NCBI GenBank assembly: GCA_035656635.1
Contig: DASRSD010000039.1
Location: 2,083 to 66,082, forward strand
Source of the DNA: Pirellulales bacterium
Lineage (GTDB): Bacteria; Planctomycetota; Planctomycetia; Pirellulales; JADZDJ01
Length of the DNA: 64,000 nucleotides
Direction of reading: 5' to 3'
Shown here: positions 39,101 through 64,000 of the stretch, one piece after another
How positions within the stretch are numbered: position 1 is the stretch's first letter
How the letters are laid out: each line of letters starts with the position of its first letter
Notes under the pieces: generated by a model
Databases searched by the model: none
What the model was told of the DNA's origin: nothing
What the model saw: only the letters and a program-made list of their open reading frames with translations
Position numbers and translations under genes: made by a program

Positions 39101-42100
39101 CCGGCAGTGACGACATCAATGGTCGCTGTTTTACCATCGTTCATGGTGAAATTGCGGTCTGTGTTGCGGGAGGTGGCGCCCGTGAGTTGCAGTGTGCCGC
39201 CATTGAAAACTAAATTGGTGGCGGTGCTGTCCGAGGCGCCGATGCTGCTGGAAGAGCCGCCGTTTTCAATATCGTCGACAACGAGGGTGCCGCTGGTGAG
39301 CGTGGTGCTTCCGTGGTAGGTAAACCCGCCGCCCGTGCCAACCAGAAATTGCTGAATGCCTGCCGGATCGCCGTTCAACACAACGCTTAGTGGGTGGGTC
39401 GAGTCACTATCGGTAATCGACGCTGTGCCCACCGTGGCGGTATTGGTGGCGAAGGAGGCATTCGTGGTAGCCGTGGGCGCCAAGGTTAGTATTGAGGCAC
39501 TCGTTGTCGAGGAGTTGGTGATTGTTGAAGTATTTGCAGTACTATTGGATTGGCTGGTAACAATGCTCGCTAAGGTCTGGTTAAAGCCGTTCAAATCCAG
39601 CGTCGTCAGTGTGCCATTGCCGCTTACACCCAGGGCGGCAACCGCATTGGGGGCAATACCGTTATTTGCACCAATACTGGTGACACCGGTGACTCCTAGC
39701 GTCGTGTCATTCCCGGTAATACTGATTTGCGGATAACTTCCGCCACCGGAAAGTTGCACATTCCCGCCACGAACCACGAGTGCGGCAACTCCGGAGCCGG
39801 TGGTAATTGGCCCGGTAAAACTCAACAACCCTGCGCCCGGTCCGACAATGTCACCGCCATTGCCCGTGGCGGCGTTAATCGTAATCGAGCCAGAAAATGT
39901 AGCAGTGCCCGATAACGAGATAGCATCGGTCGTCAAGGCGCCTAAGCCGGTGCCGGGCGAAACCGTGTTGATGACAATGTTGGGTGTCAGCGTGACGCCG
40001 TCGTGCAATTGCAACCTGGCAACCGGCGAACCGGTGTTGGGGCCATTCACGGTAATTGGCCCGGTGCCCAATCCGCTGTTGTTGAGCACGTTGATGACGC
40101 CGGAATTTACCGTGGTTCCACCGCCGTAAGTATTCACACTCGTGGTATCGAAGGTTACGGTATTGCCCCCCGCGGCAATGGTGAGCGCAATATCACGGTT
40201 TGTGCCCTTGGTGATTTGGCCCAAAATATCGGTGGCAGCACTCATTGCGACCGACAAGGAGGTTACGCCTGGAGTCGCTGAATTATCGGTAACCACAGCG
40301 CCCGCGATGGGCAAACTAAAGTTGGTGACGGAAGCGTTATTGCCGTTCAAGTTCAACGTGGCGTTCAAATTCGCGTTGGTGTTGCCGACGGTTAAAGCCG
40401 CGCCGCTGGGTAGGGCGCTGGCGTTATTGAGATTCACGGTACCGCTATTCACCGCGAGGCTGGCATAGGAGTTGGCTCCCGACAGTGTAATGGCGCCGGA
40501 GCCGTTCATGAGCACATTGCCGCTGCTGAGAATGTTACTGGCGACGTTTAAAGCGCTATCGCTGCGATTAAATATCAAATTCGCGCCGGCACCCAGCGTG
40601 ACATTGCCGGTACCTAACGTGCCGCTCGTCCCGCCAGCGCCAATGGTGACGGCGTCGCCGCCAATCGCGAGTGTGGCGCCCGCGCCAACGGTGGTGGTGG
40701 TGTAACTATTGTTGCCGGTCAAAATGACCACGCCGGTGCCAGAAACGCTCACCCCTTGACCCGTGCTGGTGCTGATGGCTCCGCTGATGGTCAAACTGGT
40801 GTTCGTGGCAGTGGAAATCTGCGCACTGGAGTTAAGCGCCATCGGCACTTCAATGGTGTGCGTGCCATTGAGAACGTTGATCGAAGCGCCCGCCGAAGCA
40901 TTGTCAACGGTCAGAGTTGAGCCGGTGTGATTGGCGGTGGTGCCAATCAAATCGAACGGTACGCCGTTGTTAAATACCAAACCGCCGACCGTCTTTCCGC
41001 CATTGAGCTGCACCACTCCGTCGCCGCCGATCAAATCGGTGCTGAAGTTGGCGGTGGCGCCTTGGGAATTGGGAATGCTGCTGCTTACCCAGTTGGCGGA
41101 ATTCGTCCACAGCTCATTGCCCGATCCGTTGGTCCAGGAGCCGCTGGTGCTGGTGCCGATGGTCAATTGGATTTCATGCAGCGAGGTATTGTTGACAAAG
41201 TTGTACGACTTCCCGGACTGGGCGTTCGCAATGGACAGATTGCTCAGCAGGCCGGTAAAGCCGGTCGTGTAATTAAACAAATCGTAGGTGCCGTTGGTGG
41301 CAAACGGAGTGGGCGTGGCAGTGCCCGCGGTGCCGGCCAGAATCAAACTGAGCGCCCCGCCGTTGATCGCCAAACCATTCGCGTTGGAAACGGTAACAAT
41401 ATCGTGCCCGGTCGAAAGCGCGGAACCGGTGTTAAAATCGAAACTGATTAACGAGCCATTCGCAAACGTCAGCGAAGTCGGCGCGAATGTAGTGCTAACG
41501 CCATTACTCACTAGAGGGTCGCCCGGCGATAAAGTACCACCGGAGTTAATGGTTAGCGCCCCAACGCTGCCCGTGCCGCCAATCGTACCACTGACGCTGA
41601 CGGCCGAGCTGGCCGATAAGCTGCCATTTACCAGCAGGGTGCCGGCACTAACCGTGGTTGCGCCGGTATAGGTGTGCGTACCGGTGAAAACCAAGGTGCC
41701 GAGACCAACCTTCGTGAGGCTGGCATTATTCGCCGCGGCTTCTGTGCCCGACATGGTCAAGCGCGTTGCAGCGGTGCTGACGCCGAAAATTGCCGTCAGA
41801 GGAGTGCCGATCGTGGAGTTGATCGTGAAATTTCTGTTGGTGCTGGTTGTGGCGCCGGTGTAGTTGAGTTCGGTATTGTTGCCGTTAAACACCAAATTAC
41901 TGGCCGCATTGGTGGAAGCGCCGATGCTGCTGGGATTTCCGCCGTCGGCGAGAAAACTGACGGTCAACGTGCCACTGTTGATGGTAGTCGGAACAGTGTA
42001 GGTACTTGCTGCACTGGTAAGCACGACGCTGCCGGTCGTGGTGCCGTTGCCAATCGCCAAATTGCCGCTGCTGGATTGGCTGGTGATGGCGCCGGCCAGC

Positions 42101-44868: not shown

Positions 44869-44901
44869 ATTGCACCGTATGGAAATAGAGTGTGCCGATG
44901 G

Positions 44902-44929
44902 CATACGCTGGCTGGCAAACATAGGTTCC
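44902..44929 (-). promoter_or_regulatory. ECF-type promoter candidate upstream of the giant gene
   Basis: The minus strand reads GGAACC (44929-44924), a 16-nt spacer, then CGTATG (44907-44902). This fits the general ECF pattern (-35 GGAAC, -10 CGT). It lies 34 nt upstream of ATG 44868 and inside the longest-ORF extension. Confidence 0.3.
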
Positions 44930-53175: not shown

Positions 53176-53371
53176 GGGCGGAGAGCAAATATCCCCGACA
53201 GGATTTGAATGCACAACCGAGCACGGTGGCCGCGGCGAGCGAACGCAGGGCGTTAGGCAGGCAAAAACGCAACAACGCTGAAATATATAATGGCGACATG
53301 AGCGATATTACAGAAATCCAAGCTTTCTAAATCAGCCGCCGGCCGCCGATGGTGAAGTTGATCTCACTTCT

Positions 53372-53800
53372 ATGCACACTTCGGAAGGCCCGGGCGTTGT
53401 TATCGGCCCCTACAAGTTGCTACAGCAAATCGGCGAAGGGGGCATGGGCGTGGTCTATATGGCCGAGCAGCAGAAGCCTGTCCGCCGCCGTGTTGCGCTC
53501 AAGATTATCAAGCCAGGCATGGACAGCCGGCTGGTAATCGCCCGCTTCGAGGCCGAGCGACAGGCACTGGCGATGATGGACCACCCCAACATTGCCCGGG
53601 TGCTGGATGCCGGTTGCACCGAGAGCGGTCTGCCCTACTTTGCCATGGAATTAGTACAGGGCATTCCCATCACGCAATACTGCGACGACAAGCAGCTCAA
53701 CACTGTCGAGCGGCTGGAGCTGTGCCGCCGAAATTCCGATCGACCTGAAGCTGCAGAACCTCCCTTCCAAGGACGATTTCTGGAAGAACTGGGAACGTGA
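53372..53800 (+). pseudogene. Ser/Thr protein kinase, truncated after the N-lobe
   Basis: [23 protein letters not shown] (Gly-rich loop), VALKIIKPG (VAIK Lys), [21 protein letters not shown], and [16 protein letters not shown]. Homology stops at ..ERLEL (53722). The HRDLKP catalytic loop, DFG and APE are absent, and the frame then reads 25 unrelated codons to a stop. Confidence 0.78.
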
Positions 53801-55538
53801 CCACGCCTGGGCGCTGCGACTCCGCAAGGCGGGATTCACCTTTGAACGGAACCAGCTCGAAGACAGGACCTGGCGGCTCGTCCTCCGCAATCAGCCCTAC
53901 TCTGATCTCTCCCTGCTCGCCGGCGCTGCGATCACCCAGCTAGACGTGGGATATACCAAAGTATCCGACCTGTCTCCGCTCAAATCGATGTCCCTGACAC
54001 ACCTCGACGTCAGCGGCACCCCGGTCGAAGACATCGCCGCGCTCCGGGGAATGAAGTTGGAATGGATCTCGCTCTTCCGCACTCGGGTGCGCGATCTGTC
54101 GCCGCTGTCGGGGATGCCGATCAAGTACATGGAACTGCGCGCCTGCGATCAGCTCACCGACGTCATGCCGCTGGGCCAAATCCCCAGCCTTGAGTCAATA
54201 CATCTGCCTGCCCACGCCGCTGACCTCGAGCCGTTGCGTAAGCTGCCGAACCTTAAAAACATTTTGTTCGGCAGCGTCGAATGCACGGCCAAGGACTTCT
54301 GGAAGACCTGGGACGGCCTGCCCTGGGCGCGGAAGCTAGAAGCAGCGGGCATCACCTTCGACATCGAGCAACTGTCGGACGGGTACTACGACGTGAGGGT
54401 GCACGATCCGAAATTCACCGATTGCTCCATCTTTACAGGGTCGAATGTTCGCTCTGTTGATCTGGACAGCAGCGGTGTGACCGACCTGAGCCCGCTGGCC
54501 GACTTGCCGCTCAAGATCCTGAACCTGCGGGATACCAAGGTGACCGATCTATCGCCGCTCCGCTCGCCGGTGCTGCGCGATGCGCTCCGCGAAATCCGTC
54601 TGTGGAAGACCAAGATCGCCGATTTTTCTCCTATTGCGGAGTGTAAGAACCTGGAGGTGTTCGACGCGTCGGACACTCTGCTGCCCGATCTCTCGGTCGT
54701 CAAGGGAATGAAGCTGCGGACCCTTAACGTCGAGCGAACCAGCGTGACGGATATCGCTCCGCTGACGGGCATGCCGCTGGAGGATGTCTACCTCCGCGGC
54801 ACCAAGGTCACCGACATCTTGCCGCTGCTAAAGTGCCCGACGCTCAAGTCGCTGATGCTGCCTGAGGATGCGCGGGATTTCGAATCACTCCACGCACTGC
54901 CGAACCTGACGCGCATCTCCTACACCTCCGCCCGGAACGATGGCCCAGACATGACCGCCGACCAGTTCTGGACCGCCAACAAAGATGAACCGTGGCTTGC
55001 GGCGCTCCGCAAAACCAACCTCACCTACAAAACCCGCCTCCTCAAGGACGGCTCTTGGGAGCTGATCCTCGATCATCAGCCCATCTCTGACCTTTCGATG
55101 CTTAAGGGCGCGTCGATCACGCGGCTCTCGATTGCGTCCACCCCTGTGGCGGATCTGTCGCCACTGCGCGGTATGAAGCTGACGTTCCTGAGAATCTCGG
55201 GAACGAAGGTGTCCGACTTGAGCCCCATTCGTGGGATGCCCATTACTAACGTGACCATGACTGAAACCAACGTGCGTGATCTGACGCCGCTGGTCGGCAT
55301 GCCGCTTCGCTCCCTGAACATGCCCGACTGCAAGCAGATTGCGGACCTGTCGCCGTTGGCGGAGATCAAGACACTGGAAAGTGTGATCCTTCCGCCCGAC
55401 ACGAAGAACATTGAGGGCCTTCGCAAGCTCCCTAATCTCAAGCGGCTTGGATACAAATTTAGCGGCAGTAGCGCCGACCAGACCGTCCAGGAATTCTGGG
55501 CCGCGTACGACCGCACCAAAAGCGCTAGTGCGCCCTAG
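53730..55538 (+). pseudogene. leucine-rich-repeat domain remnant lacking its own 5' end (the ORF track starts it at GTG 53946)
   Basis: The reading frame is open from 53655 and coherent from [21 protein letters not shown] (53730), with no ATG. It has about 20 LRR units (L..L.L..T.V.DLSPL.GM.L) arranged in three super-modules. It is in a different frame from the kinase fragment. Confidence 0.55.
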
Positions 55539-55661
55539 CTAAGTTGGATCGCCCCACAGCTCCATCAAGTCGTTGGCGTTGGACAGACACCTGGCAAGCA
55601 ACATCTGCCAAAGCCTGATCCCGCTGCAATGCAATACCCAATACGTGGTGTCCCGCTATAA

Positions 55662-56414
55662 GCGATCGCGTTCATAGCCCCGTATCGCGTCCATCGCATC
55701 GTTACGACGTGGGACGCGGCCGGCTGGCGACCCAGCCAAGGCGACCTGGATCGCTACGGGCGCCAGATTCCCGATGAGGAATACCATACCAACGAGTTCG
55801 AAAGAATCGTTTCGTTGAAGGCACGAACCGAAGCAGTCTCGCGCCATTTGACCGATTATTTGAAGCGTACCGACCGATTTGCCAAAACCATCGTATTCTG
55901 TGTCGATCAGGAACATGCCGACGAAATGCGACGGGCACTCAATAATCTCAATGCCGATCTCGTTCGCGACAATCCCGATTACGTGTGCCGCGTCACCTCC
56001 GATGAAGGTGACATTGGCCGCGGCCATCTCAGCAATTTCCAGGACCTTGAGCGGCGCACTCCTGTCATTCTGACTACATCGCAGTTGCTTACGACTGGTG
56101 TTGACGCCCCCACAGTGCAAAATATCGTGCTAGTTCGGATCATCAACTCGATGACCGAATTCAAGCAGATCATCGGCCGTGGTACTCGCGTCCGTGACGA
56201 CTACGGCAAACTGTTTTTCAGCATTTTGGATTACACGGGTTCCGCCACTCGATTGTTCGCGGACCCAGATTTTGACGGCGACCCGTCCATCGAGACCGAA
56301 GTAACTATCGATGAGGAAGGGGAACCGGTGAGCGAGGAAACGATCGTTACCAGCGCACCTACTTGGAAGGTTTGCGCAAGCACTTCGGAGAGGGAACATT
56401 TGACACAGTCCTGA
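55662..56414 (+). pseudogene. hsdR: type I restriction enzyme R subunit (HsdR), internal/C-terminal fragment
   Basis: FIAPYRVHRIVTTWDAAGWRPSQGDLDRYGRQIPDEEYHTNEFERIV, AKTIVFCVDQEHADEMRRAL, VCRVTSDEGDIG, ILTTSQLLTTGVDAPTVQNIVLVRIINSMTEFKQIIGRGTR, LFFSILDYTGSATRLFADPDFDG correspond to helicase lobe 2 of HsdR. The nuclease and DEAD-box lobe 1 are missing. Faint traces in other frames run upstream to about 55560, and the 3' end is frameshifted. Confidence 0.8.
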
Positions 56415-57449
56415 ATGACTTGGCACAGTTTGAGCAAAGTGCCACCGACCGAATCCCCATCACACTCCGCGCCCCGAAAAGCCAAGCAGCCAGCATTGCC
56501 CGCAAATTCGTCGATGAAGTCTGCCGACGCATCGCGGACAAATCCCAAGGCAGCCAGCGCCTTGGAGCGCACCCTGAACCTGCCACCGCAACTGCCGCTG
56601 GCAACTGAGACCCCCGCGACCCCAGGGGAACAGCGCGGGCGCCGGCAATTGAAAGGGGCCTTTTTAATTGAGATTGCACGTCTCCGTCCCGATCCATCCC
56701 AACCGCGCCGGCGCGTTGATGATGAATCGATTGCTGAATTAGCAGCTTCCATCCGCCGGCACGGCGTTATTCAAGCGATAAGTGTCCGTTACCTTCCTGA
56801 CCAAGACATCTACCAGATCATCAGCGGTGAACGCCGCTATCAGGCGGCCAAACTCGCGGGGCTTTCGGCAATCCCCTGTTTGATTCACGATCCCAAACAA
56901 CGAGACTTACTTCTTAGGCAGGTGGTCGAGAATTGGCAACGCCGAGAACTGCATCCCTTCGATCTGGCAGACGCTCTCGCACAACTCCGTGACGACAATA
57001 AATTCACGCAGAAGCAACTCGCCCAGGAGACCGGCAAACCGGAAGCGGAAATCTCCAAGTTCCTAAAACTTTTGGAACTAGCGCCGGCGGTCCAGAAGGA
57101 ATCTCGCGCCGACACCACCGGTGTATTATCTTTTAGACACCTATACAACATTGCCCGCTTAGAGCCCGCGGAGCAGGAAGCGATGGCCAGCGCAGTGCGG
57201 GAGCAGCGGCTTTCCGCCGTCGAAACGGAGCAATTGGTTCGCAAGACCATCGAGCGCCGCACGGCTCCTCCGAAGCGAGGCACGCCGGTCACCAAAGTAG
57301 AACTGCTAACCAGCAAAGCGAAAGTGACGCTGTTGTTTCGAAAGCAGGCACCGAATCGCAATGACATTCTCACGGCGTTGGAGGAGGCGCGGACCAAAGC
57401 CAAGGACATCGGCAAAAAAACGACGCTTAAAATCCACCGACCGAAATAG
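56415..57449 (+). CDS. ParB/Spo0J-like partition or nuclease-domain protein
   Basis: IEIARLRPDPSQPRRRVDDESIAELAASIRRHGVIQAISVR....YQIISGERRYQAAKLAGLSAIPCLI (ParB N-domain GERR box), followed by an HTH (FTQKQLAQETGKPEAEISKFLKLLEL). The start is uncertain; an internal Met lies at 56514. Confidence 0.8.
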   Translation: MTWHSLSKVPPTESPSHSAPRKAKQPALPANSSMKSADASRTNPKAASALERTLNLPPQLPLATETPATPGEQRGRRQLKGAFLIEIARLRPDPSQPRRRVDDESIAELAASIRRHGVIQAISVRYLPDQDIYQIISGERRYQAAKLAGLSAIPCLIHDPKQRDLLLRQVVENWQRRELHPFDLADALAQLRDDNKFTQKQLAQETGKPEAEISKFLKLLELAPAVQKESRADTTGVLSFRHLYNIARLEPAEQEAMASAVREQRLSAVETEQLVRKTIERRTAPPKRGTPVTKVELLTSKAKVTLLFRKQAPNRNDILTALEEARTKAKDIGKKTTLKIHRPK

Positions 57450-57725
57450 GACCAGTATTTGGCTTATGCAAGCCAATCTGTGCAAAAGTTTCTCCGAGAA
57501 ACTCCACGCTTGCGCAAAGAGAAAGATCATTGCACCGTATTGGACCGAACATGACGATGAAAATCTAATTTTCCGAATGGATTCTCAAGACACATCGCGC
57601 GAGCACATCTTTATGCCGTACCAATGTACCCTTGGGGTTGCATTGTCTATTGACCATGATCTATCACAACAGTGCGTGAATTTTGCGATTGTTGAGCGCA
57701 GGCGTACGAACACGGAGCAAAAATT

Positions 57726-58463
57726 ATGCAGTCCGAATCGGACATCCCGCAACTTCGCGTACAACGAGAACTCGATAGCTCGTCGGGTTCAGTTCAATTG
57801 AGATACTTCTGGGACAACCGCGAGATCCAAAAGGTTGCCATTTCCGGAGTCGTCGCCGAGCGGCTTGCTGGCCTCACGCTGATCCAAAAGGATCTCGTCA
57901 ATGCGCTTGGGTGGATCAAAAAGGCATCCGCACTCATTGATACCATCGCGGTAGCTGGAGACGGTACCTACCATCAGGTGGCAGACCGGGAGATCGGAAA
58001 CCAAGTAAAGGCGTTTTTTGTGGCAGCCCTCACGTTTTACGGAAAAGCGTTCACAGAAGCATCGGGCCGACGGGCGCAACTATCGAAAGATACGCTAGAT
58101 TCCGAGTTTCGCGCTACACACGACGACTACATTTCCTATCGTCACAATATGGCGGCACATAGTGGATCAGCCAAGATTGAATCCGCGAAATCCTTCATGC
58201 TCCTCATCCCAGTCGGTAAAAATAAGTTCGGCTTTCGCATACACACCAATCGCCTGCAACCAGATTTCGCATGGTCAGACGATATCCGCGATCAATTTAC
58301 GTCACTCATTGAGCATGCAATTGCAAAGGTCTCTGAGCAGCACGAAAACTTATCGGTACGCATTATCGATGCGGCAGCGGCGAAGGGTCTCGAATTTTGG
58401 ATGCGAGCGTCTGTGAAGTCGGAAGCGTTTGACGTAGATGCTCTCGTAAAGCCAAAGCGCTGA
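57726..58463 (+). CDS. hypothetical protein with Rx5H (HEPN-like) motif
   Basis: 245-aa ORF in a lower-GC patch, with GGAG 8 nt upstream of the ATG. Predicted to be mostly helical. YISYRHNMAAHSG (R at 58140, H at 58158) resembles the R-x4-6-H motif of HEPN/Abi-type RNases. No family assigned. Confidence 0.55.
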   Translation: MQSESDIPQLRVQRELDSSSGSVQLRYFWDNREIQKVAISGVVAERLAGLTLIQKDLVNALGWIKKASALIDTIAVAGDGTYHQVADREIGNQVKAFFVAALTFYGKAFTEASGRRAQLSKDTLDSEFRATHDDYISYRHNMAAHSGSAKIESAKSFMLLIPVGKNKFGFRIHTNRLQPDFAWSDDIRDQFTSLIEHAIAKVSEQHENLSVRIIDAAAAKGLEFWMRASVKSEAFDVDALVKPKR

Positions 58464-58762
58464 CACTGCAAATAGTACGGCGCTTCGCCTACTGGGATGC
58501 CGACCGCGACGGCTGCTTTTGCCTCGCATCCTTTCGGGCGTACTGGCATCACCTTTTGCGCCAGACATTTATTATTAGCCCAATAACCCCGGCCAAAGCC
58601 GTGGATTCTTTCAAATGCCGCGGCGCTGTTCTCGGCCCAGATCGTCAACCGATTCTGCCCGCGTTATGGCGCCCGGCAATGGTAAGGTTCTGCGCTATAG
58701 AACGCTCAATCCCCTACCGCGGCCTGCCGCAAAAAGATCGCCCCCGAACCTTGGGCCGGGGC

Positions 58763-60124
58763 ATGACGCAGTTGTCATTGGTCGAGCATTCCCTCTGCCC
58801 CCTCGATACCGAAGCGTCGCTCCGTCCGGGTTTGATCCACGAGGCAGGTTATTTCTTCACCGACAAGGATGGCACCCGCCGCAAGGCGACCGCCCGCGTG
58901 ATTTCTCCGGAAGGACTCTCGGCCTACGATGAATTGTATTTATGGGGATTGCTAGCACTCACGTTCTCACAAGCGGAACCAGGCGTCGAGTTCACTGCTA
59001 CGCCGCATTATTGTCTACGCCAGTTGGGATTGATTGAAGACAAGCACCACCGCGGCGGCGAGACCTACCGGTTGTTCCGCGACGCGATCGAGCGGCTGTC
59101 CGCCGTCACCTATCAAAATGACAACTTCTACGACCCCATTCGTGGTGAACACTGCCGCGTCGGATTTGGATTCTTGAGCTACCGGCTGCCGCTGAATTCC
59201 GATTCCTCACGAGCTTGGCGGTTTTACTGGGACCCACTGTTGTTTGAAATCTGTCAGGCAACCGGCAGTGCCTTGGCGTTCGACTTGGAAACCTACCGTC
59301 AATTGGATACCGCTACTCGGCGACTCTACTTGCTGCTGAAAAAAATGTTTTGGAAGAAAACATCCTCCCTGCATTTCGACGTGCGGCACCTGGGAGTGAA
59401 CGTGCTGGGATATTCCCCCACCCTCAAACCCTGGCGCTTGAAGGAAAAGCTGATCGGTTCCGTGCGGAAGCTTGTCGATCAAGGCATTCTTGCTCCGCCG
59501 CCGGAAGGATCGATGAAGAATCTGTTCCGCAAGCAGCACAAGGGGCAGTACAGTATCCTGTTCCAGCGGGGACCGAATTTCGATCGAACTACAACCACCA
59601 AAGTCAACGTCGATTCCCCGCACTACGAACTGCTGCAAGCGATCGGCTTCGAGCAGCCGGCCATCGCCCGACTGTTGCGCACCTACCCGCCCAGGCTTAT
59701 CGGCGAGTGGGCGGACATTACCCTAGCCGCCCGCGAACGCAACGGCGAGAAGTTTTTCACCACGAGTGCCCAGGCGTTCTTCGTAGATAACATCAAACAT
59801 GCCGCCGCCGGAACCCGGACGCCGCCCGACTGGTGGCGGGAACTCCGCAAGCTGGAAGAGCAGCAACGCCGCCGCCATGCCGCGGATAATTCTGATCTGA
59901 CCTTGGACCAGTATTTGAAAACCGAGGCCCGTGAGGCTTTCGCCCGCGTGACCGATCGCATCTTCGGCGATCTGATTGCCGGTGGCAAAACGGAGGCCGA
60001 GGCTCGTGAGCAGGCCGACCGAATCGCCCGCAATAATTTGAAAGTGCAGTTCTACCGGGAACACCCGGAATGCCGACCAACCGATCCGCCCACCAATCCC
60101 ATCGTGGATCATTCGGATGAGTGA
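58763..60124 (+). CDS. replication initiator protein A (RepA/RPA-family-like)
   Basis: MTQLSLVEHSLCPLD..., SPEGLSAYDELYLWGLLAL, YCLRQLGL...GGETYRLFRDAIERLSAVTYQN, TRRLYLLLKKMFW follow the layout of plasmid RPA-type initiators. The longest ORF starts at 58556. Confidence 0.65.
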   Translation: MTQLSLVEHSLCPLDTEASLRPGLIHEAGYFFTDKDGTRRKATARVISPEGLSAYDELYLWGLLALTFSQAEPGVEFTATPHYCLRQLGLIEDKHHRGGETYRLFRDAIERLSAVTYQNDNFYDPIRGEHCRVGFGFLSYRLPLNSDSSRAWRFYWDPLLFEICQATGSALAFDLETYRQLDTATRRLYLLLKKMFWKKTSSLHFDVRHLGVNVLGYSPTLKPWRLKEKLIGSVRKLVDQGILAPPPEGSMKNLFRKQHKGQYSILFQRGPNFDRTTTTKVNVDSPHYELLQAIGFEQPAIARLLRTYPPRLIGEWADITLAARERNGEKFFTTSAQAFFVDNIKHAAAGTRTPPDWWRELRKLEEQQRRRHAADNSDLTLDQYLKTEAREAFARVTDRIFGDLIAGGKTEAEAREQADRIARNNLKVQFYREHPECRPTDPPTNPIVDHSDE

Positions 60125-60155
60125 CAGACCTCTTTCTTGAGGCGATTCCGTTCGT

Positions 60156-60178
60156 CACCTGCCGCGGTAGCGGCAGTG
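60156..60178 (+). terminator. hairpin after repA (no clear U-tract)
   Basis: CACCTGCCGC-GGTA-GCGGCAGTG, 32 nt after the repA stop. Confidence 0.3.
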
Positions 60179-60334
60179 TTCAGTAAATAGACTTTCTGAT
60201 AAGCAATCCCCTATTTGTTTCCATTATTATTTGTAGACATCTATTTGGGTCTGCACGACCACCAGTGAGAAGAATCGGCCTATGGGGCAAGAATTGTTCT
60301 CCTGATCGCCAAATTACATCCGGCAAAGCTGCCA

Positions 60335-60388
60335 AAAACCACACGCCAACTCCACCACCATTCACTCAAAACCACACGCCAACTCCAC
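60335..60388. repeat. two perfect 21-bp direct repeats (iteron candidates)
   Basis: AAAACCACACGCCAACTCCAC at 60335-60355 and 60368-60388, a 33-bp period. They lie 210 nt downstream of repA and next to an AT-rich stretch (60181-60260). Confidence 0.5.
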
Positions 60389-61063
60389 TACTTGCTAGAA
60401 ATCATTACTGTTTTGCAATGGACAATCAGTACATTCCAAAAAAAACAGTCCCTTGATATTCACCACACTGACAGACCCCGCTGCGAGTGCGCAACCACTT
60501 GCGTCCACCCGCTGGTCCATCAGTAGAGCCGTCGGCGGCCAAGGCCGACTGACGGACGGCTCACTGATGCGGCACTCACGCCTCTATGAGGATGCACCGC
60601 TCGGACGGCTATCGCCGCCGAGGCCACCCCCTCCGACACGCCGGCCGCGCTCTCGCGCAGACCTTTGGCGGCTGCGGTGGTGGCCTCGGCTGCTCGGCTC
60701 AGGGCAGCCAAGCCGCCTCGCGGGCATCGCACACCACCGCTGTTGGCGGAGTGGCGCGGCAGCGCGTTGTCTTCACCGGCCTATGCGGCCGGCGTGACGC
60801 CGCGGCGGAGGCCGCGGAGCCGGAAGCGCCGTCGGTTCTGTTACACGATCCATAGGCACTACCAATGTTTTGATATTGCAAGATCGTCGTGCGCTGACGG
60901 CTCGGGGCGGATTGCTATTCCGATCACACTTCTTGGATGCAATCTGGTGCGTTGTGTCGGGTGTGATTTACCACGACAGGCATTCACACAAAAACTCATG
61001 AGGACCAAAGTCGGCGGTCTTTTAGCGTGCGTTAAGAAACGCTCGAATTTGGCCGCATTCTCG

Positions 61064-61921
61064 TCACCCGTCTACCTGTTCCAATGACTGCGGACGCCGT
61101 GGCCGATGTGGAACAAGCGTCGACAAGTGACCGTTGCACTGAATATAGTTTGAGCCAGCTTCTAGACAATGCTCGCAGGATGCGCAATCGTCGTTAACGT
61201 TTGCATATGGCTTACCCCGCCAGACGCGCACTGCAATCGGGCACCAGTCGACATGAACGGCGAGACCCCGTCGAATCGTTGGCTTGCGAAGTGTTTGAGA
61301 CATAAGCCGCTTGTACTCGGCTTGTTCGCGAGCATTGAAAATCCAGCGTTTGTTATCGATACCATTAACGACAAGCTCTGCAATGGCGTCCATTGGCATG
61401 TCCCGTGGTGCGTCGCTCAGGTCAATCTCCACCGCAGAGACCCGCAGATCGCGAATTCGTTGCAGTTTATTGCTGTCGACTGGATGAGTGACGTAAACTT
61501 CGATGAAAAGATCACGGTTGCCAATGCGAGCAATCAAATCGGGAACCAGACCATCGACGCGCTGCTCGATCCGGACAGAATCGATTTCGTACATCTGCGC
61601 CGGGGCAATTTCATGCGCCGAGCGATTCGACTTAAATTCAATGCGTACAGCCGGAAGCCGGATTACACGTAGCCGATCAAGGATGTCCTTCGCAGCCAAA
61701 TGTAGCGCGGTTTCGGTAGCATATCTGCAGGAATCCGATGCATGGTGTGCAAAATGATGTTCACGCCGCGTCGCTTTACGAGCGACGAGTGGGGATGAAC
61801 ATCTCGGGCAAACGCACCCACAGGCGAGGCCGGAATCGACCTGTGATATGTGCAGCAATGCGTTTTCACGGAGTCCGTAGGGCAGACGGATCTTTGTCAT
61901 AATGTCGCCCCTGCGCATCAC
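61064..61921 (-). CDS. CoiA-like nuclease family protein with extra C-terminal Cys-rich region
   Basis: GLACGCVCPRCSSPLVARKATRREHHFAHH..DSCRYATETALHLAAKDIL (CoiA N-terminal Zn finger and HFAH motif). VPDLIARIGNRDLFIEVYVTH is PD-(D/E)xK-like. C-terminal WCP...DDCASCEHC..QCNGH. Confidence 0.62.
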   Translation of the reverse strand: MMRRGDIMTKIRLPYGLRENALLHISQVDSGLACGCVCPRCSSPLVARKATRREHHFAHHASDSCRYATETALHLAAKDILDRLRVIRLPAVRIEFKSNRSAHEIAPAQMYEIDSVRIEQRVDGLVPDLIARIGNRDLFIEVYVTHPVDSNKLQRIRDLRVSAVEIDLSDAPRDMPMDAIAELVVNGIDNKRWIFNAREQAEYKRLMSQTLRKPTIRRGLAVHVDWCPIAVRVWRGKPYANVNDDCASCEHCLEAGSNYIQCNGHLSTLVPHRPRRPQSLEQVDG

Positions 61922-62028
61922 AGGTATTCAACCGCCGAAGTGCGATTAAGCATTGCGGCATTTTGGCGGCCGAATGTGCAACAGTCAATCTTGGTATATT
62001 ATTCTTCGATATAAATGGCGACGACTCG

Positions 62029-63285
62029 CTACTTGGCCGTCGAGGGCCTTGATTCTTGTGCCTGACGCCCAGAGGCGTCGCGTAGGAATTGCCACTCCTC
62101 GAAAGAAAGGGTTTCGGGCTGGCGGTCGCGAAAGCGGCCGGAGAAACCCGAGCGCGTCCAGCCCACTTGCACGGGGCAGCGCTGCGACAGTTCCCACAGA
62201 GCCTGCTGCATTCCGCTTTCGCCCTCGGAATCGAGATCAAACAGTAGCGTCAGCGGGACATTGCCTAGTTCGGTAGCCCAACCGGCCAACTTGTCGGCTT
62301 GCTCCTCGGTGATCCGGTTGCTGCAGATCGCCACGGCGGGAACGCCCAAGAGGCTGAGTCGGATCGCATCGTTAGGACCCTCGACAACCACGACTGTTCC
62401 CAGCGTTTTGATTTGCTCAAGCACTGCGGGATCGCGTAGCCGATGTTCTCCGTAGAGCAGTAACCCGCGATGCAGTCCTTTCGGAAACGCCACCTTGGTC
62501 GGCTCTTCGCCTTGGCGCCCGCCGCTCACCCAATCCACGTGCTTTCGTTCAAAGTCCGGATCGCGGCCGCAGTAGCCAACAGCTTGTCCCTGATCGTTCT
62601 GCAGTTGATACACGATCCTGCCACGCATCGTGCCACCGCTGGTATTTCCATTAGTGTCTCGCGGCAGATACCCCATCCGCCACTGCGTGGCGACTTCGCT
62701 GGTCAGGTATGGCCGCCGACGAAAATACCCCGCCGCACTGGGATTCATCGCCGCCGGATCGGTGATGAATTTTTCATGCAGATTTACTAAGCCCCGCGCC
62801 CGTTCGTTCGGACTTTCGGCGAGCGGTACGTTGATCTTAGGCGGTTCCGGCGCCGTTTCTTCTTTCGGCCTGGAAGCAGATGCAGACAACGGCGTCCCGG
62901 TGTCGCCCGCGATTTGTTGCAGGGTGGCCAAGACCTCTTTGAAGCGCTCGCCGCGTGGCCGGCCTCCGCCGTGCTGGCCGGGTAACAAGAGGTCGATCAT
63001 GCCCACGAGGTTGCCACCGGCTTTATGCGGACAAGAGTATTGATGGCAGCACCAGCGCTTCACATCTTCGTCTTTGATCGCCAACGCCCGATCGCCCGTC
63101 GGTTCTGATTTTCCGCAATTGAGGAAACACCGAGTGCGGATTTCATTGCCTGTGCGGTGGGCGAGTTCATGCACCAGACCGAAGTGCGTCAGCACTTGCT
63201 CGACGCTGACGCGCCGGCTGAGATCATCCACGTTGACAAAGTCACGTCTTGGACGGTTCATGGAATGACAGAAGAGGGGAGCCAT
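62029..63285 (-). CDS. DNA primase-like protein (CHC2-type zinc finger + Toprim domain)
   Basis: N-terminal TRCFLNCGKS....WCCHQYSCPHKAGGNLVGMI. Toprim VVVVEGPNDAIRLSLLGVPAVAI...LTLLFDLDSEGESG. Confidence 0.72.
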   Translation of the reverse strand: MAPLFCHSMNRPRRDFVNVDDLSRRVSVEQVLTHFGLVHELAHRTGNEIRTRCFLNCGKSEPTGDRALAIKDEDVKRWCCHQYSCPHKAGGNLVGMIDLLLPGQHGGGRPRGERFKEVLATLQQIAGDTGTPLSASASRPKEETAPEPPKINVPLAESPNERARGLVNLHEKFITDPAAMNPSAAGYFRRRPYLTSEVATQWRMGYLPRDTNGNTSGGTMRGRIVYQLQNDQGQAVGYCGRDPDFERKHVDWVSGGRQGEEPTKVAFPKGLHRGLLLYGEHRLRDPAVLEQIKTLGTVVVVEGPNDAIRLSLLGVPAVAICSNRITEEQADKLAGWATELGNVPLTLLFDLDSEGESGMQQALWELSQRCPVQVGWTRSGFSGRFRDRQPETLSFEEWQFLRDASGRQAQESRPSTAK

Positions 63286-63371
63286 AGTAGGCTTGCTTCC
63301 GACCTATGGCAAGCGCCGCTCCCTTACGACTGACCACATCACGAGACTTCGACTTGCTGACGGCCTTAGTG

Positions 63372-64000
63372 ATGAGTCCGCTGACCCTCGGGCAGCTCTT
63401 GAAACTCAGCCAAACCTTTGCCGCCGGCCCGTTCCGGTCACAGCGGTCGTTGCTCGATCGCTTGCAGCGATTGCGACTCGGCGGTTGGGTGCGTCGCTGG
63501 CCGCTCGCCTTGGCGAGACGCGGAGGCGGAGCGCCGGATTACTACAAAATCTCCCCACAAGGATTGCGGCTTCTCTATGGCGAAGAAGCACGGCCGCCAA
63601 CCAAACAGTTCTTCGCCGAAGTGGCCGTCGCCCGACACCATCACATGTACAGCTTGGCGGAATTCCTGGTACATACAGCCGTCGCCGCCCACATCCGCGG
63701 GTTTCGGATTGTGGACGTGCATCCGGAGAACACCTTTGTTGCCAATGTGAACGGCGAGACGATGGTACCCGACCATCGCTTCGATCTAATGAATGGAGAA
63801 GGGGAGCGGTATCGATACCTAGTAGAGCTCGATAACTCGACCGAGACGATTTACTCCCCTCGACATGAAAAGGAGACGTGGCACCGGAAGATTCGCTTGC
63901 ACGATGCATACCAGGATCAATGCACTCAGCGCCATCGCGTAGTGGTGGTCACCACTCGCAGTCGGGCGCGATTGAACAATATTATGGACGCCGCGGCGCG
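63372..64000 (+). CDS. replication-relaxation family protein (partial; runs off the right edge)
   Basis: Absent from the ORF track because no stop falls in the window. From ATG 63372: MSPLTLGQLLKLSQTFAAGPFRSQRSLLDRLQRLRLGGWVRRWP...YYKISPQGLRLLYG...HHHMYSLAEFLVHTAVAA...MVPDHRFDL....RYRYLVELDNSTE matches the Replic_Relax layout (wHTH, H..h...f, PD..f.l, lE.D..TE). Confidence 0.72.
   Translation, partial: MSPLTLGQLLKLSQTFAAGPFRSQRSLLDRLQRLRLGGWVRRWPLALARRGGGAPDYYKISPQGLRLLYGEEARPPTKQFFAEVAVARHHHMYSLAEFLVHTAVAAHIRGFRIVDVHPENTFVANVNGETMVPDHRFDLMNGEGERYRYLVELDNSTETIYSPRHEKETWHRKIRLHDAYQDQCTQRHRVVVVTTRSRARLNNIMDAAA

What the first reader, a model, noticed from the sequence alone, without database searches (positions are those of the whole stretch)
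55545..64000. Plasmid-like element integrated (or co-assembled) at the right end of the window
From just after the LRR stop, the gene content switches to maintenance and replication functions typical of plasmids or ICEs. The set comprises a ParB-like protein, an RPA/RepA-type initiator followed by iteron-like repeats and an AT-rich patch, a CHC2-Toprim primase, and a replication-relaxation family protein. These are mixed with a degraded hsdR, a CoiA-like nuclease and an orphan lower-GC gene. No integrase, tRNA or direct-repeat boundary is visible within the window. The left boundary coincides with two pseudogenes (the kinase/LRR remnant and hsdR), consistent with a recombination scar. Extrachromosomal replicons and their integrated forms are sparsely described in this lineage.
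Basis: partly seen in the sequence, partly recalled or inferred. Interest (0 to 1): 0.65.

Follow-up and report, generated by a model that had tools for sequence, protein, structure and literature searches.

The report
Plasmid-like island integrated at tRNA-Arg
The right end of the window is the left part of a roughly 26-kb mobile island inserted next to a tRNA-Arg gene in a Pirellulales (planctomycete) chromosome; its core is a partly decayed copy of a widespread plasmid-like element that I found no description of, and whose replication origin could be useful for building genetic tools for this phylum.

Summary
The window is part of a 100-kb metagenome contig, which I extended 16 kb to the right.

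**Boundaries.** The plasmid-like genes lie in a composite island of about 26.2 kb.
- The right end, outside the window, has an excisionase-like gene, a tyrosine integrase and tRNA-Arg(CCG).
- A 20-nt copy of the tRNA 3' end (18/20 identical, same orientation) lies in the window at 53190-53209. This is 2.3 kb left of the proposed boundary, so the kinase/LRR and hsdR remnants lie inside the island.

**Plasmid-like backbone.** It starts at a 5'-truncated parA (56348) fused to the hsdR fragment. It continues with parB, a divergent RPA-superfamily initiator, an origin, a DnaG-like primase, a MOB_C relaxase, a coupling protein and vapBC.

**Relatives.** The same backbone occurs in many Planctomycetota genomes, often inside megabase contigs. 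It carries a conserved origin of three iterons spaced 33-34 bp apart. This copy has two intact iterons and no complete parA.

**Second module.** A different, lower-GC relaxase and coupling-protein module sits beside the integrase.

**Verdict.** Integration is supported. This is a new variant of a known kind, of moderate interest.

The parts
53190..53209 (+). Candidate attL: a 20-nt copy (TATCCCCGACAGGATTTGAA) of the 3' end of tRNA-Arg(CCG). The tRNA lies 26.2 kb to the right, outside the window.
   Evidence: 18/20 identical and in the same orientation. It is the only match in the window, against 0.01 expected from shuffles. The tRNA copy is at L027 20721-20740. The site lies 15 bp after the GDPD stop codon. 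No third copy was found.
53372..53800 (+). Ser/Thr kinase remnant (N-lobe only), inside the island.
   Evidence: Pkinase model positions 1-92 of 263. PknB-like positions 7-104.
53655..55538 (+). Leucine-rich-repeat protein (ORF from 53946). It is in a different frame from the kinase remnant.
   Evidence: LRR_4 7.7e-28. Frame analysis; internalin-like LRR hits.
55662..56411 (+). Type I restriction hsdR fragment, truncated at both ends (homology about 55671-56339).
   Evidence: NCBIfam EcoAI-R 2.5e-96, model positions 342-560 of 768. PADLOC REase_I 1.5e-59.
56348..56560 (+). 3' remnant of parA (last ~63 codons). This is the truncated left end of the plasmid-like backbone, fused to the hsdR fragment.
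   Evidence: tblastn with the ParA of relative L110: residues 201-263 of 264, 55% identity, E 5e-17. Complete parA genes sit next to rep in relatives.
56496..57449 (+). parB (partition, centromere-binding protein).
   Evidence: ParB_N 2.3e-24 and HTH_ParB 6e-15. 77.6% identical over 317 aa to the ParB of L110.
57726..58463 (+). 245-aa protein of unknown function with lower GC; variable cargo.
   Evidence: phrog_8440 3.7e-39. No Pfam or NCBIfam hit. GC 0.48-0.53.
58763..60124 (+). rep: a divergent RPA-superfamily, iteron-type replication initiator.
   Evidence: AF2 pLDDT 84.8. Foldseek match to RctB domains 2-3 (5tbf), E 6e-9. hhalign to plasmid RPA proteins, probability 99.3%. 756+ homologues.
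60201..60251 (.). Conserved origin block with three (T)ATTTG boxes, in the AT-rich patch.
   Evidence: Alignment A2 with five relatives shows invariant ATTTG columns. GC 0.46.
60335..60424 (.). Iteron array. Two intact 24-nt iterons (60335-60358 and 60368-60391, 33 bp apart), plus a decayed third position (~60401-60424).
   Evidence: Thirteen of 14 relatives have 3 (one has 4) iterons at 32-36 bp spacing in the same position. The iteron core is shared with the closest relatives.
60500..60800 (.). Non-coding stretch of 71-75% GC with nested inverted repeats; function unknown (parS or oriT candidate).
   Evidence: No gene was called here.
61064..61921 (-). Protein with a weak CoiA_N-like zinc-finger region; function uncertain.
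   Evidence: CoiA_N E 1.1e-5, 25.2 bits against a cut-off of 26.3. The single-sequence AF2 model was unusable.
62029..63285 (-). DnaG-like Toprim primase; a backbone gene.
   Evidence: Toprim_4 5.5e-5. TIGR01391 dnaG 1.3e-9. phrog_47/6444 DNA primase. It occupies the same position in relatives.
63306..64000 (+). MOB_C-type relaxase (Replic_Relax, 292 aa). It continues to window-equivalent 64184.
   Evidence: PF13814 3.8e-8. 81% identical to the L111 orthologue. Invariant PD...ExD...K residues. PF13814 corresponds to the MobC relaxase superfamily (PMC5357655).

Best explanation
**What it is**

The finding is the left 10.8 kb of a composite genomic island of about 26.2 kb. The island is integrated at the 3' end of a tRNA-Arg(CCG) gene in a Pirellulales chromosome. 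It spans window 53190 to window-equivalent 79375.

**Plasmid-like element**

Its larger part is a plasmid-like integrative mobilizable element. The backbone runs parA-parB, rep, oriV, primase, MOB_C relaxase, coupling protein, vapBC.

**Inferred mechanism**

1. A tyrosine integrase and an excisionase recombine attL and attR to release a circle.
2. The RPA-type initiator binds the phased iterons next to the ATTTG-box/AT-rich region and starts theta replication. The element's own primase assists.
3. ParAB segregates the circle.
4. The PD-(D/E)XK-type MOB_C relaxase nicks an origin of transfer. The element's own coupling protein then hands the DNA to a mating channel supplied by a helper, as in CloDF13.
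5. VapBC stabilises the element.

**Second module and state of decay**

A second, unrelated and lower-GC module lies between the first module and the tRNA. It holds a coupling protein, a MOB_C relaxase, a methyltransferase, the excisionase and the integrase, so it owns the only recombinase.

This copy is partly decayed:
- parA is cut to its last 63 codons and fused to an hsdR fragment.
- The third iteron is degenerate.
- attL has two mismatches.
- Pseudogenes fill the left 3 kb.

**Shown versus inferred**

Shown: the gene content, the homologies, the conserved origin architecture, the tRNA/integrase/repeat boundaries, and the wide chromosomal distribution. Inferred: excision, replication, transfer, and the order of events.
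For: **Contig and extension**
- The window is part of the 100,021-bp contig Ga0376680_0000036, which I extended with L002 and L027.

**Right end of the island**
- HTH_17 excisionase-like gene, Phage_integrase 5e-22, and tRNA-Arg(CCG) (ARAGORN, and Rfam 68 bits), followed by EamA and thiolase genes.

**Direct repeat**
- A 20-nt copy of the tRNA 3' end occurs once in the window, at 53190. It matches 18/20, against 0.01 expected.

**Flanks and assembly**
- The flanks are chromosomal in character.
- The hsdR'/parB junction is reproduced in a second assembly.

**Initiator (Rep)**
- Fold match to RctB domains 2-3, E 6e-9.
- hhalign 99.3% to plasmid RPA proteins that themselves pass the Pfam RPA cut-off.

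**Origin**
- Three iterons at 33-34 bp spacing in 13 of 14 relatives, plus the conserved ATTTG block.

**Backbone in relatives**
- The same gene order appears in L003, L004, L110 and L111/L112. The relaxase is 81% identical to the L111 orthologue.
- A genome scan gave 193 loci. Of the 80 listed, 21 lie on contigs over 100 kb, the largest 4.8 Mb.

**parA remnant**
-.

**Two modules**
- The two relaxases show no BLAST similarity, the two coupling proteins are 26% identical, and GC is 46-50% against 55-63%.

**No T4SS**
- No mating-channel genes appear among the island's Pfam-annotated genes.
Against: - No empty site could be examined. The nearest GDPD homologue is only 50% identical and is not syntenic. 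The left boundary therefore rests on one imperfect 20-nt repeat.
- No att-like sequence marks the junction between the two modules. How they became joined is unknown.
- The only integrase belongs, by position, to the second module.
- No read-level evidence for excision or copy number was available.
- No helper T4SS is known for this genome.
- None of 17 small rep-bearing contigs showed terminal overlaps indicating a circular form.
- Replication, nicking and transfer activities are all inferred from homology.
Confidence: 0.75

Rival explanations
1. The 20-nt repeat at 53190 is a coincidence, or the relic of an older event. Under this reading, the present element's left end was simply lost by the deletion that fused the truncated parA to the hsdR fragment (~56345). 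The kinase/LRR and hsdR remnants would then be chromosomal or older debris rather than part of the island.
For: - In relative L110, parA directly follows chromosomal-looking glycosyltransferase genes, so parA is normally the leftmost backbone gene.
- The repeat has two mismatches.
- No empty site was available.
- GC does not discriminate here.
Against: - The match is the only one in 64 kb, against 0.01 expected.
- It is in the correct orientation, lies in an intergenic gap, and covers exactly the T-loop-to-discriminator segment used by tRNA-targeting integrases.
- The stretch between it and parA consists only of gene fragments.
Confidence: 0.15
2. The plasmid-like segment is a free plasmid that was wrongly joined to chromosomal sequence during metagenome assembly (a co-assembly chimera).
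For: - Many relatives sit on short contigs of 2-12 kb.
- Logan contigs break at 53551, 56530/56553 and 65308.
Against: - The segment is flanked on both sides by more sequence of the same 100-kb contig.
- It is bracketed by the tRNA/integrase and a tRNA-derived repeat.
- parA is truncated and fused to an hsdR fragment, which is not expected in a working plasmid.
- The Logan contigs overlap consistently across the junction.
- Relatives lie inside contigs of 1.2-4.8 Mb.
Confidence: 0.04
3. The whole 100-kb contig is itself a large plasmid or chromid, so the island sits in an extrachromosomal replicon.
For: - Planctomycete plasmids share many chromosome-like genes with their hosts (preprint 10.1101/2024.01.22.576637).
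- Only about 80 kb of the contig was examined.
Against: - The flanks encode MnmA, a TPP enzyme, an FGGY kinase, polysaccharide export, a tRNA and a thiolase. No other replication, partition or transfer genes were found.
Confidence: 0.04
4. The island is a single element that naturally carries two mobilisation modules, rather than two elements joined together.
For: - There is only one att pair and one integrase.
- Integrative mobilizable elements with two relaxases are known in streptococci (PMC5357655).
Against: - The annotated relatives have a single relaxase and coupling-protein set.
- The two sets are unrelated or only 26% identical, and they differ by about 10 points of GC.
Confidence: 0.12

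Closest known systems
RPA-family (PF10134) iteron plasmids of Planctomycetota, for example pSINAC01 of Singulisphaera acidiphila, pK2D_1 and pEP7_04 (Quinonero-Coronel et al., bioRxiv 10.1101/2024.01.22.576637)
   Same: - The initiator is homologous (hhalign 99.3%; tblastn 2e-7).
- rep lies next to parA/parB.
- Tandem repeats and a GC dip occur near rep.
- Chromosomal RPA homologues have already been interpreted as integrated plasmids.
   Different: - Only about 25% identical, and below Pfam RPA detection.
- No member of this clade is on any finished plasmid in PLSDB.
- Here the replicon is linked to a primase, a MOB_C relaxase, a coupling protein and vapBC, and it sits in chromosomes.
- The origin has a fixed array of three iterons phased at 33-34 bp downstream of rep.
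Integrative mobilizable elements (IMEs) inserted in tRNA genes
   Same: - Tyrosine integrase plus excisionase next to a tRNA.
- A direct repeat of the tRNA 3' end at the far side.
- A relaxase but no mating-channel genes.
- Restriction, toxin-antitoxin and defence-type cargo.
   Different: - It carries a full theta-plasmid maintenance set (Rep, iterons, ParAB, primase), which IMEs usually lack.
- The island holds two different mobilisation modules but one integrase.
CloDF13-type mobilisation (MOB_C relaxase MobC plus own coupling protein MobB); recalled from my own knowledge of the literature
   Same: - A MOB_C-family relaxase is paired with an element-encoded coupling protein and no mating channel. 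Only the channel needs to be borrowed.
   Different: - A very distant host and very distant sequences.
- The element is integrated.
- oriT and the helper are unknown, and no complete T4SS has been reported in planctomycete chromosomes (preprint above).
Actinomycete integrative and conjugative elements (AICEs such as pSAM2 and SLP1); from my own knowledge
   Same: - Plasmid-like elements that integrate into the 3' end of tRNA genes using Int/Xis.
- They keep their own replication initiator.
   Different: - AICEs use rolling-circle Rep proteins and an FtsK-like TraB for double-stranded transfer.
- This element has an iteron-type initiator, ParAB, a primase, a MOB_C relaxase and a VirD4/TrwB-like ATPase.
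RctB, the initiator of Vibrio cholerae chromosome 2 (PDB 5tbf)
   Same: - It is the best structural match to the Rep model (E 6e-9, TM 0.56 on the target).
- RctB domains 2-3 are the plasmid-initiator-like core.
   Different: - 15-16% identity.
- No evidence for RctB-specific features such as methylation-dependent 11/12-mers, 39-mers or crtS control.

Membership tests
tRNA-integrated genomic island / integrative mobilizable element | Site-specific recombinase at one end, adjacent to the target tRNA gene | tested here: met
   A 320-aa Phage_integrase (5e-22) lies about 200 bp from tRNA-Arg(CCG). An HTH_17 excisionase-like gene lies beside it. Both are outside the window, at L027 19336-20794.
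tRNA-integrated genomic island / integrative mobilizable element | Direct repeat of the tRNA 3' end at the distal boundary (attL/attR) | tested here: met
   An 18/20 match at window 53190-53209 in the same orientation, against 0.01 expected by shuffling. It is imperfect and not confirmed by an empty site.
tRNA-integrated genomic island / integrative mobilizable element | Presence/absence polymorphism (an empty site in relatives) | tested here: inconclusive
   The closest homologue of the flanking GDPD gene is 50% identical and its neighbourhood is not syntenic.
tRNA-integrated genomic island / integrative mobilizable element | Relaxase and/or oriT, without its own mating-pair-formation system | tested here: met
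   Two PF13814 relaxases and two TrwB/TraG-type coupling proteins are present. No VirB4 or other T4SS families appear among the island's genes. oriT was not identified.
Integrative and conjugative element (ICE) | Complete type IV secretion (mating-pair-formation) gene set | tested here: not met
   No T4SS component other than coupling proteins is seen in the 26-kb island.
RPA replication initiators (Pfam PF10134) | Significant match to the Pfam RPA model | tested here: not met
   The window protein has no hit. Three of 36 family members hit at E of 0.12 or worse.
RPA replication initiators (Pfam PF10134) | Homology to bona fide RPA proteins by profile comparison | tested here: met
   hhalign probability 99.3%, E 9.7e-21 over 336 columns, against three planctomycete plasmid RPA proteins. 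Each of those passes the Pfam cut-off.
Iteron-type theta replicon | Initiator with the plasmid-Rep fold (RepE/pi/RctB-core type) | tested here: met
   AF2 pLDDT 84.8. Foldseek match to RctB domains 2-3 with probability 1.0, E 6e-9.
Iteron-type theta replicon | Array of phased direct repeats next to rep, plus an AT-rich region | tested here: met
   Two intact iterons and one decayed one at 33-bp phasing, with a 46% GC patch. Three iterons occur in 13 of 14 relatives.
Iteron-type theta replicon | Rep binds the iterons and supports autonomous replication | not testable with these tools
   This needs binding assays and a replication test in a planctomycete host.
MOB_C relaxases (PF13814, PD-(D/E)XK fold) | Match to PF13814 above the curated cut-off | tested here: met
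   34.1 and 58.8 bits against a cut-off of 25.3. PF13814 is equated with MobC in PMC5357655, and the fold assignment is in PMC3424549.
MOB_C relaxases (PF13814, PD-(D/E)XK fold) | Conserved nuclease-type acidic/lysine residues | tested here: met
   P155-D156, E174, D176 and K195 are invariant across four divergent sequences. Their catalytic role is not shown.
Type I ParABS partition system | Intact Walker-type ParA together with ParB | tested here: not met
   ParB is intact. Only residues 201-263 of ParA remain. Relatives have both genes. parS was not identified.
Free circular plasmid | Circular contig or junction reads; depth differing from the chromosome | not testable with these tools
   No reads were available. 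Seventeen small rep-bearing contigs show no terminal overlap.

The most novel reading that the evidence does not exclude
The rep-oriV-primase-MOB_C-coupling-protein backbone may define a phylum-wide family of integrative plasmids of Planctomycetota that I found no description of.
- The family comprises 830 clusters at 50% identity and 193 loci in species-representative genomes.
- Intact members would excise, replicate from a rigid three-iteron origin, and move between cells without any known planctomycete mating channel. That would imply either an unrecognised helper system or a non-canonical transfer route.
- The rep-oriV cassette would then be a ready-made replicon for a phylum that lacks replicative vectors.
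Probability: 0.4. Interest if true: 0.65.

Novelty: new variant of a known kind. Interest (0 to 1): 0.5.

Why it matters
- **Little is known about mobile DNA in this phylum.** Planctomycetota have few described mobile elements. Only 21 plasmids were analysed in the one available survey, and foreign replicons do not replicate in them (preprint 10.1101/2024.01.22.576637).
- **The family is common.** Plasmid-like replicons of one family lie integrated in many planctomycete chromosomes.
- **The origin is testable.** The conserved layout (ATTTG boxes plus three phased iterons) can be tested directly and used to build shuttle vectors.
- **Transfer is unexplained.** The pairing of a MOB_C relaxase with the element's own coupling protein, with no mating channel in sight, sharpens the open question of how DNA moves between planctomycete cells.
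- **This copy itself is ordinary.** It is a decaying mosaic island.

Tried and rejected
1. **Empty-site test.**
   - A genome scan with the flanking GDPD protein found nothing.
   - Its best homologues are at most 50% identical.
   - Two long contigs carrying them are not syntenic.
2. **Metagenome scan.** The ThiF query did not return the source contig. I extended the contig through a protein search plus an exact look-up instead.
3. **Direct Pfam, NCBIfam, PHROG and PDB-sequence searches with Rep.** Nothing useful came back. Homology was established by structure and profile comparison instead.
4. **Internal att site between the two modules.** None was found with up to 3-6 mismatches.
5. **Circular-plasmid signature.** Seventeen small rep-bearing contigs showed none.
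6. **Boundaries of relatives near tRNAs (L073, L105).** These were ambiguous. L073 has an IS91-type transposase with its recombinase next to tRNA-Leu.
7. **Integrase comparison.** The integrase of this island is not closely related to that of relative L004, so integrases are not part of the conserved backbone.
8. **Single-sequence AF2 of the CoiA-like protein.** The model was unusable, with pLDDT 33.
10. **Rfam.** It found only the tRNA.

Full report
**Source and extension**

An exact-protein look-up shows that the window comes from a JGI metagenome contig, 3300036855 Ga0376680_0000036, of 100,021 bp. Window position equals contig position minus 4246. One of the contig's proteins is also deposited at NCBI under a Pirellulales MAG. 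Two look-ups gave the contig up to window-equivalent 80303: L002 (window = L002 + 48762) and L027 (window = L027 + 58635). An independent Logan assembly of SRR11835640 yields two contigs. L001 is 100% identical to window 56530-64000 and continues to 65308. L113 equals window 53551-56553. The two overlap by 24 nt.

**Checking the observation**

- **ParB:** 56496/56514-57449. ParB_N 2.3e-24 and HTH_ParB 6e-15.
- **245-aa lower-GC protein:** 57726-58463, phrog_8440 at 3.7e-39.
- **Rep candidate:** 58763-60124.
- **Non-coding stretch (940 bp):** a 46% GC patch and two 24-nt repeats 33 bp apart, at 60335 and 60368.
- **CoiA_N-like protein:** 61064-61921 on the minus strand. The hit is weak, E 1e-5 and under Pfam's cut-off.
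- **Toprim/DnaG-core primase:** 62029-63285 on the minus strand. No profile detected a CHC2 finger.
- **Replic_Relax protein:** starts at 63306 and runs off the window.
- **hsdR fragment:** a stop-free frame at 55662-56411, matching EcoAI-R model positions 342-560 of 768.
- **Kinase remnant:** only the kinase N-lobe remains. The LRR part is open from 53655 in another frame.
- **tRNAs:** none in the window.

**Is the initiator an RPA/RepA-type protein?**

Direct family searches fail. Pfam, NCBIfam and PHROGs give nothing. PF10134 appears at E of 0.12 or worse in only 3 of 36 family members. A PDB sequence search also finds nothing.

Three other lines establish the relationship.
- An AlphaFold model built from a 36-sequence alignment (pLDDT 84.8, pTM 0.75) matches domains 2-3 of RctB. 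These domains are the plasmid-initiator-like core. The match has E 6e-9 and probability 1.0.
- tblastn against 72,556 plasmids finds only four hits. All are the annotated 'replication initiator protein A' of planctomycete plasmids, at about 25% identity and E from 2e-7 to 2e-4.
- A profile-profile comparison with three of those proteins gives 99.3% probability and E 9.7e-21 over 336 columns. Each of the three passes the Pfam RPA cut-off.

The protein is therefore a divergent branch of the RPA superfamily. That superfamily is already known to replicate planctomycete plasmids (preprint 10.1101/2024.01.22.576637). No close relative sits on any finished plasmid.

**The origin**

I examined the DNA downstream of rep in 14 relatives. 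Thirteen have three direct repeats of 21-31 nt (one of these has four). The spacing is 32-36 bp, mostly 33/34 bp, and the array starts 150-350 bp after the rep stop codon.

An alignment of the window with five relatives shows a conserved block. Its consensus is AAGCAATCCCCTATTTGTTTACA..TATTTGTAAACATCTATTTGGGTC, corresponding to window 60201-60251. The iterons follow about 85 bp later. Their core (CGCCAA[C/G]TCCACCA) is shared among the closest relatives and changes with Rep divergence in more distant ones.

In the window, the first two iterons are intact. The third position (~60401-60424) is only about half conserved, and two of the ATTTG boxes carry substitutions. This conserved, phased architecture is the strongest evidence that the module is a real replicon. 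It also suggests that this copy's origin is eroding.

**Backbone and distribution**

Annotated neighbourhoods of relatives show the same gene order: (parA-parB)-rep-origin-variable genes-primase (minus strand)-Replic_Relax-coupling protein-antitoxin+PIN.
- The relatives are L003 (73% Rep identity), L110 (69%), L111/L112 (65%) and L004/L092 (53%).
- The relaxase is 81% identical between the window and L111.
- A ParA Walker-A motif lies next to rep in at least 29 of the fetched loci.

The family is large.
- More than 756 proteins match in the 90%-identity collection.
- 830 representatives match at 50% identity.
- 193 loci occur in species-representative genomes. Nearly all are Planctomycetota (Pirellulales, Planctomycetaceae, Gemmataceae, Isosphaeraceae). 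Of the 80 listed, 21 are on contigs over 100 kb, the largest 4.8 Mb.

Flanking genes differ between loci, so this is a mobile module rather than conserved chromosomal synteny. None of 17 small rep-bearing contigs has terminal overlaps suggesting a circle.

PF13814 is the MOB_C relaxase superfamily (PMC5357655) and has a PD-(D/E)XK nuclease fold (PMC3424549). Four divergent sequences share invariant P-D, E-x-D and K residues.

**Boundaries**

To the right of the window, the contig continues with these genes:
- a 697-aa TrwB/TraG-type coupling protein;
- an antitoxin plus a PIN toxin;
- small ORFs;
- a ThiF/E1-like protein (BilD-like);
- two unknown proteins;
- a second coupling protein (602 aa);
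- a second Replic_Relax protein (284 aa);
- a DNA methyltransferase;
- an HTH_17 excisionase-like gene;
- a tyrosine integrase (320 aa, minus strand);
- tRNA-Arg(CCG), on the minus strand at L027 20719-20794;
- an EamA-type transporter and a thiolase.

The last 20 nt of the tRNA, from the T-loop to the discriminator, occur once more in the whole window. The copy is at 53190-53209, in the same orientation, and matches 18/20. Shuffles predict 0.01 matches. It lies 15 bp after the stop codon of a GDPD gene and just before the kinase remnant. This is the expected position for the displaced tRNA end (attL) of an element integrated into the tRNA 3' end.

The island therefore spans about 26.2 kb, from 53190 to window-equivalent 79375. 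The kinase/LRR and hsdR remnants lie inside it. The left 50 kb of the window encodes chromosomal functions: MnmA, a TPP enzyme, an FGGY kinase, polysaccharide export and CHAD.

I could not confirm the boundary with an empty site, because this lineage has no close relatives in the databases.

**The scar**

The ParA of relative L110 aligns to window 56348-56560. Only its residues 201-263 of 264 are represented, at 55% identity and E 5e-17. The hsdR homology ends at about 56339.

The plasmid-like backbone is therefore cut inside parA and joined to an hsdR fragment that is itself truncated at both ends. ParB is intact, at 77.6% identity to L110.

**Composite nature**

The two relaxases show no significant BLAST similarity. 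The two coupling proteins are 26% identical. The right-hand module has 46-50% GC against 55-63% for the left. Annotated relatives carry one set only.

No att-like sequence lies between the modules. The integrase is not closely related to that of relative L004. The simplest reading is that two different mobilizable elements became joined at one tRNA site. The integrase belongs to the tRNA-proximal module, and the plasmid-like element has lost its left end. The order of events is not resolved.

**Mechanism (inferred)**

Intact members would work as follows.
1. They excise by Int/Xis.
2. They replicate as circles from the iteron origin, using their own initiator and primase.
3. ParAB partitions the circle.
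4. VapBC stabilises it.
5. The MOB_C relaxase and the element's own coupling protein mobilise the DNA through a mating channel borrowed from a helper. This is the CloDF13 arrangement, as I recall it from the literature.

The planctomycete plasmidome preprint reports relaxases with coupling proteins but no complete mating system in planctomycete chromosomes. It lists only MOB_F and MOB_P types, so MOB_C elements were not noted there. I found no paper describing this family.

**Verdict**

- Integration is supported, with the boundary revised.
- This element is a decaying member of what seems to be an undescribed but widespread family of plasmid-like integrative mobilizable elements.
- It is a new variant of known kinds (RPA replicons, tRNA-integrated mobilizable islands) rather than something categorically new.

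Noticed in passing
L027 10001-11668 (window-equivalent 68636-70303, outside the window): A 555-aa ThiF/E1-like protein lies between the two mobilisation modules. It matches PADLOC BilD at 8.8e-18. Its homologues are scattered across Binatia, Actinomycetes and Capsulimonas. It is probably horizontally moving cargo for defence or ubiquitin-like conjugation.
   Followed up: partly
window 60500-60800: A non-coding stretch of 71-75% GC with nested inverted repeats lies downstream of the iterons. A GGACGGCTC motif recurs here and in relative L003. It could be a parS or oriT site.
   Followed up: no
L106 1-98, 1079-1176, 9620-9717; L108 11568-11643, 12271-12346: Direct repeats of about 100 nt bracket the rep gene in a 10-kb Planctomycetaceae contig. 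A related repeat occurs twice in another contig. They may be element ends or a miniature repeat element.
   Followed up: no
L066, L067, L076, L087, L088: Small rep-bearing contigs are binned into MAGs labelled Fimbriimonadales, Chthoniobacterales, Enterobacteriaceae and Hyphomicrobiaceae. This reflects either binning errors or a host range beyond Planctomycetota.
   Followed up: no
window 53551, 56530-56553; window-equivalent 65308: Logan contigs of SRR11835640 end at these points: inside the kinase remnant, at the parA remnant/parB start, and inside the coupling-protein gene. The cause is unknown. It could be repeats or population variants.
   Followed up: partly
L032 11850-11877 and 11910-11937: Two perfect 28-nt direct repeats, 60 bp apart, lie just beyond the three iterons of a relative. 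This may be a second class of binding site in the origin region.
   Followed up: no
window 36112-44922 (minus strand): A single ORF of 2936 aa lies in the chromosomal part of the window. I did not examine it.
   Followed up: no
L111/L112 554-6292; L004 15249-15914 and 20870-21428: Relatives of the element carry restriction-modification genes beside the backbone: an N6_N4 methylase with ResIII, a Dam-like methylase, and HsdM. The hsdR fragment in the window may be the remains of similar cargo.
   Followed up: partly
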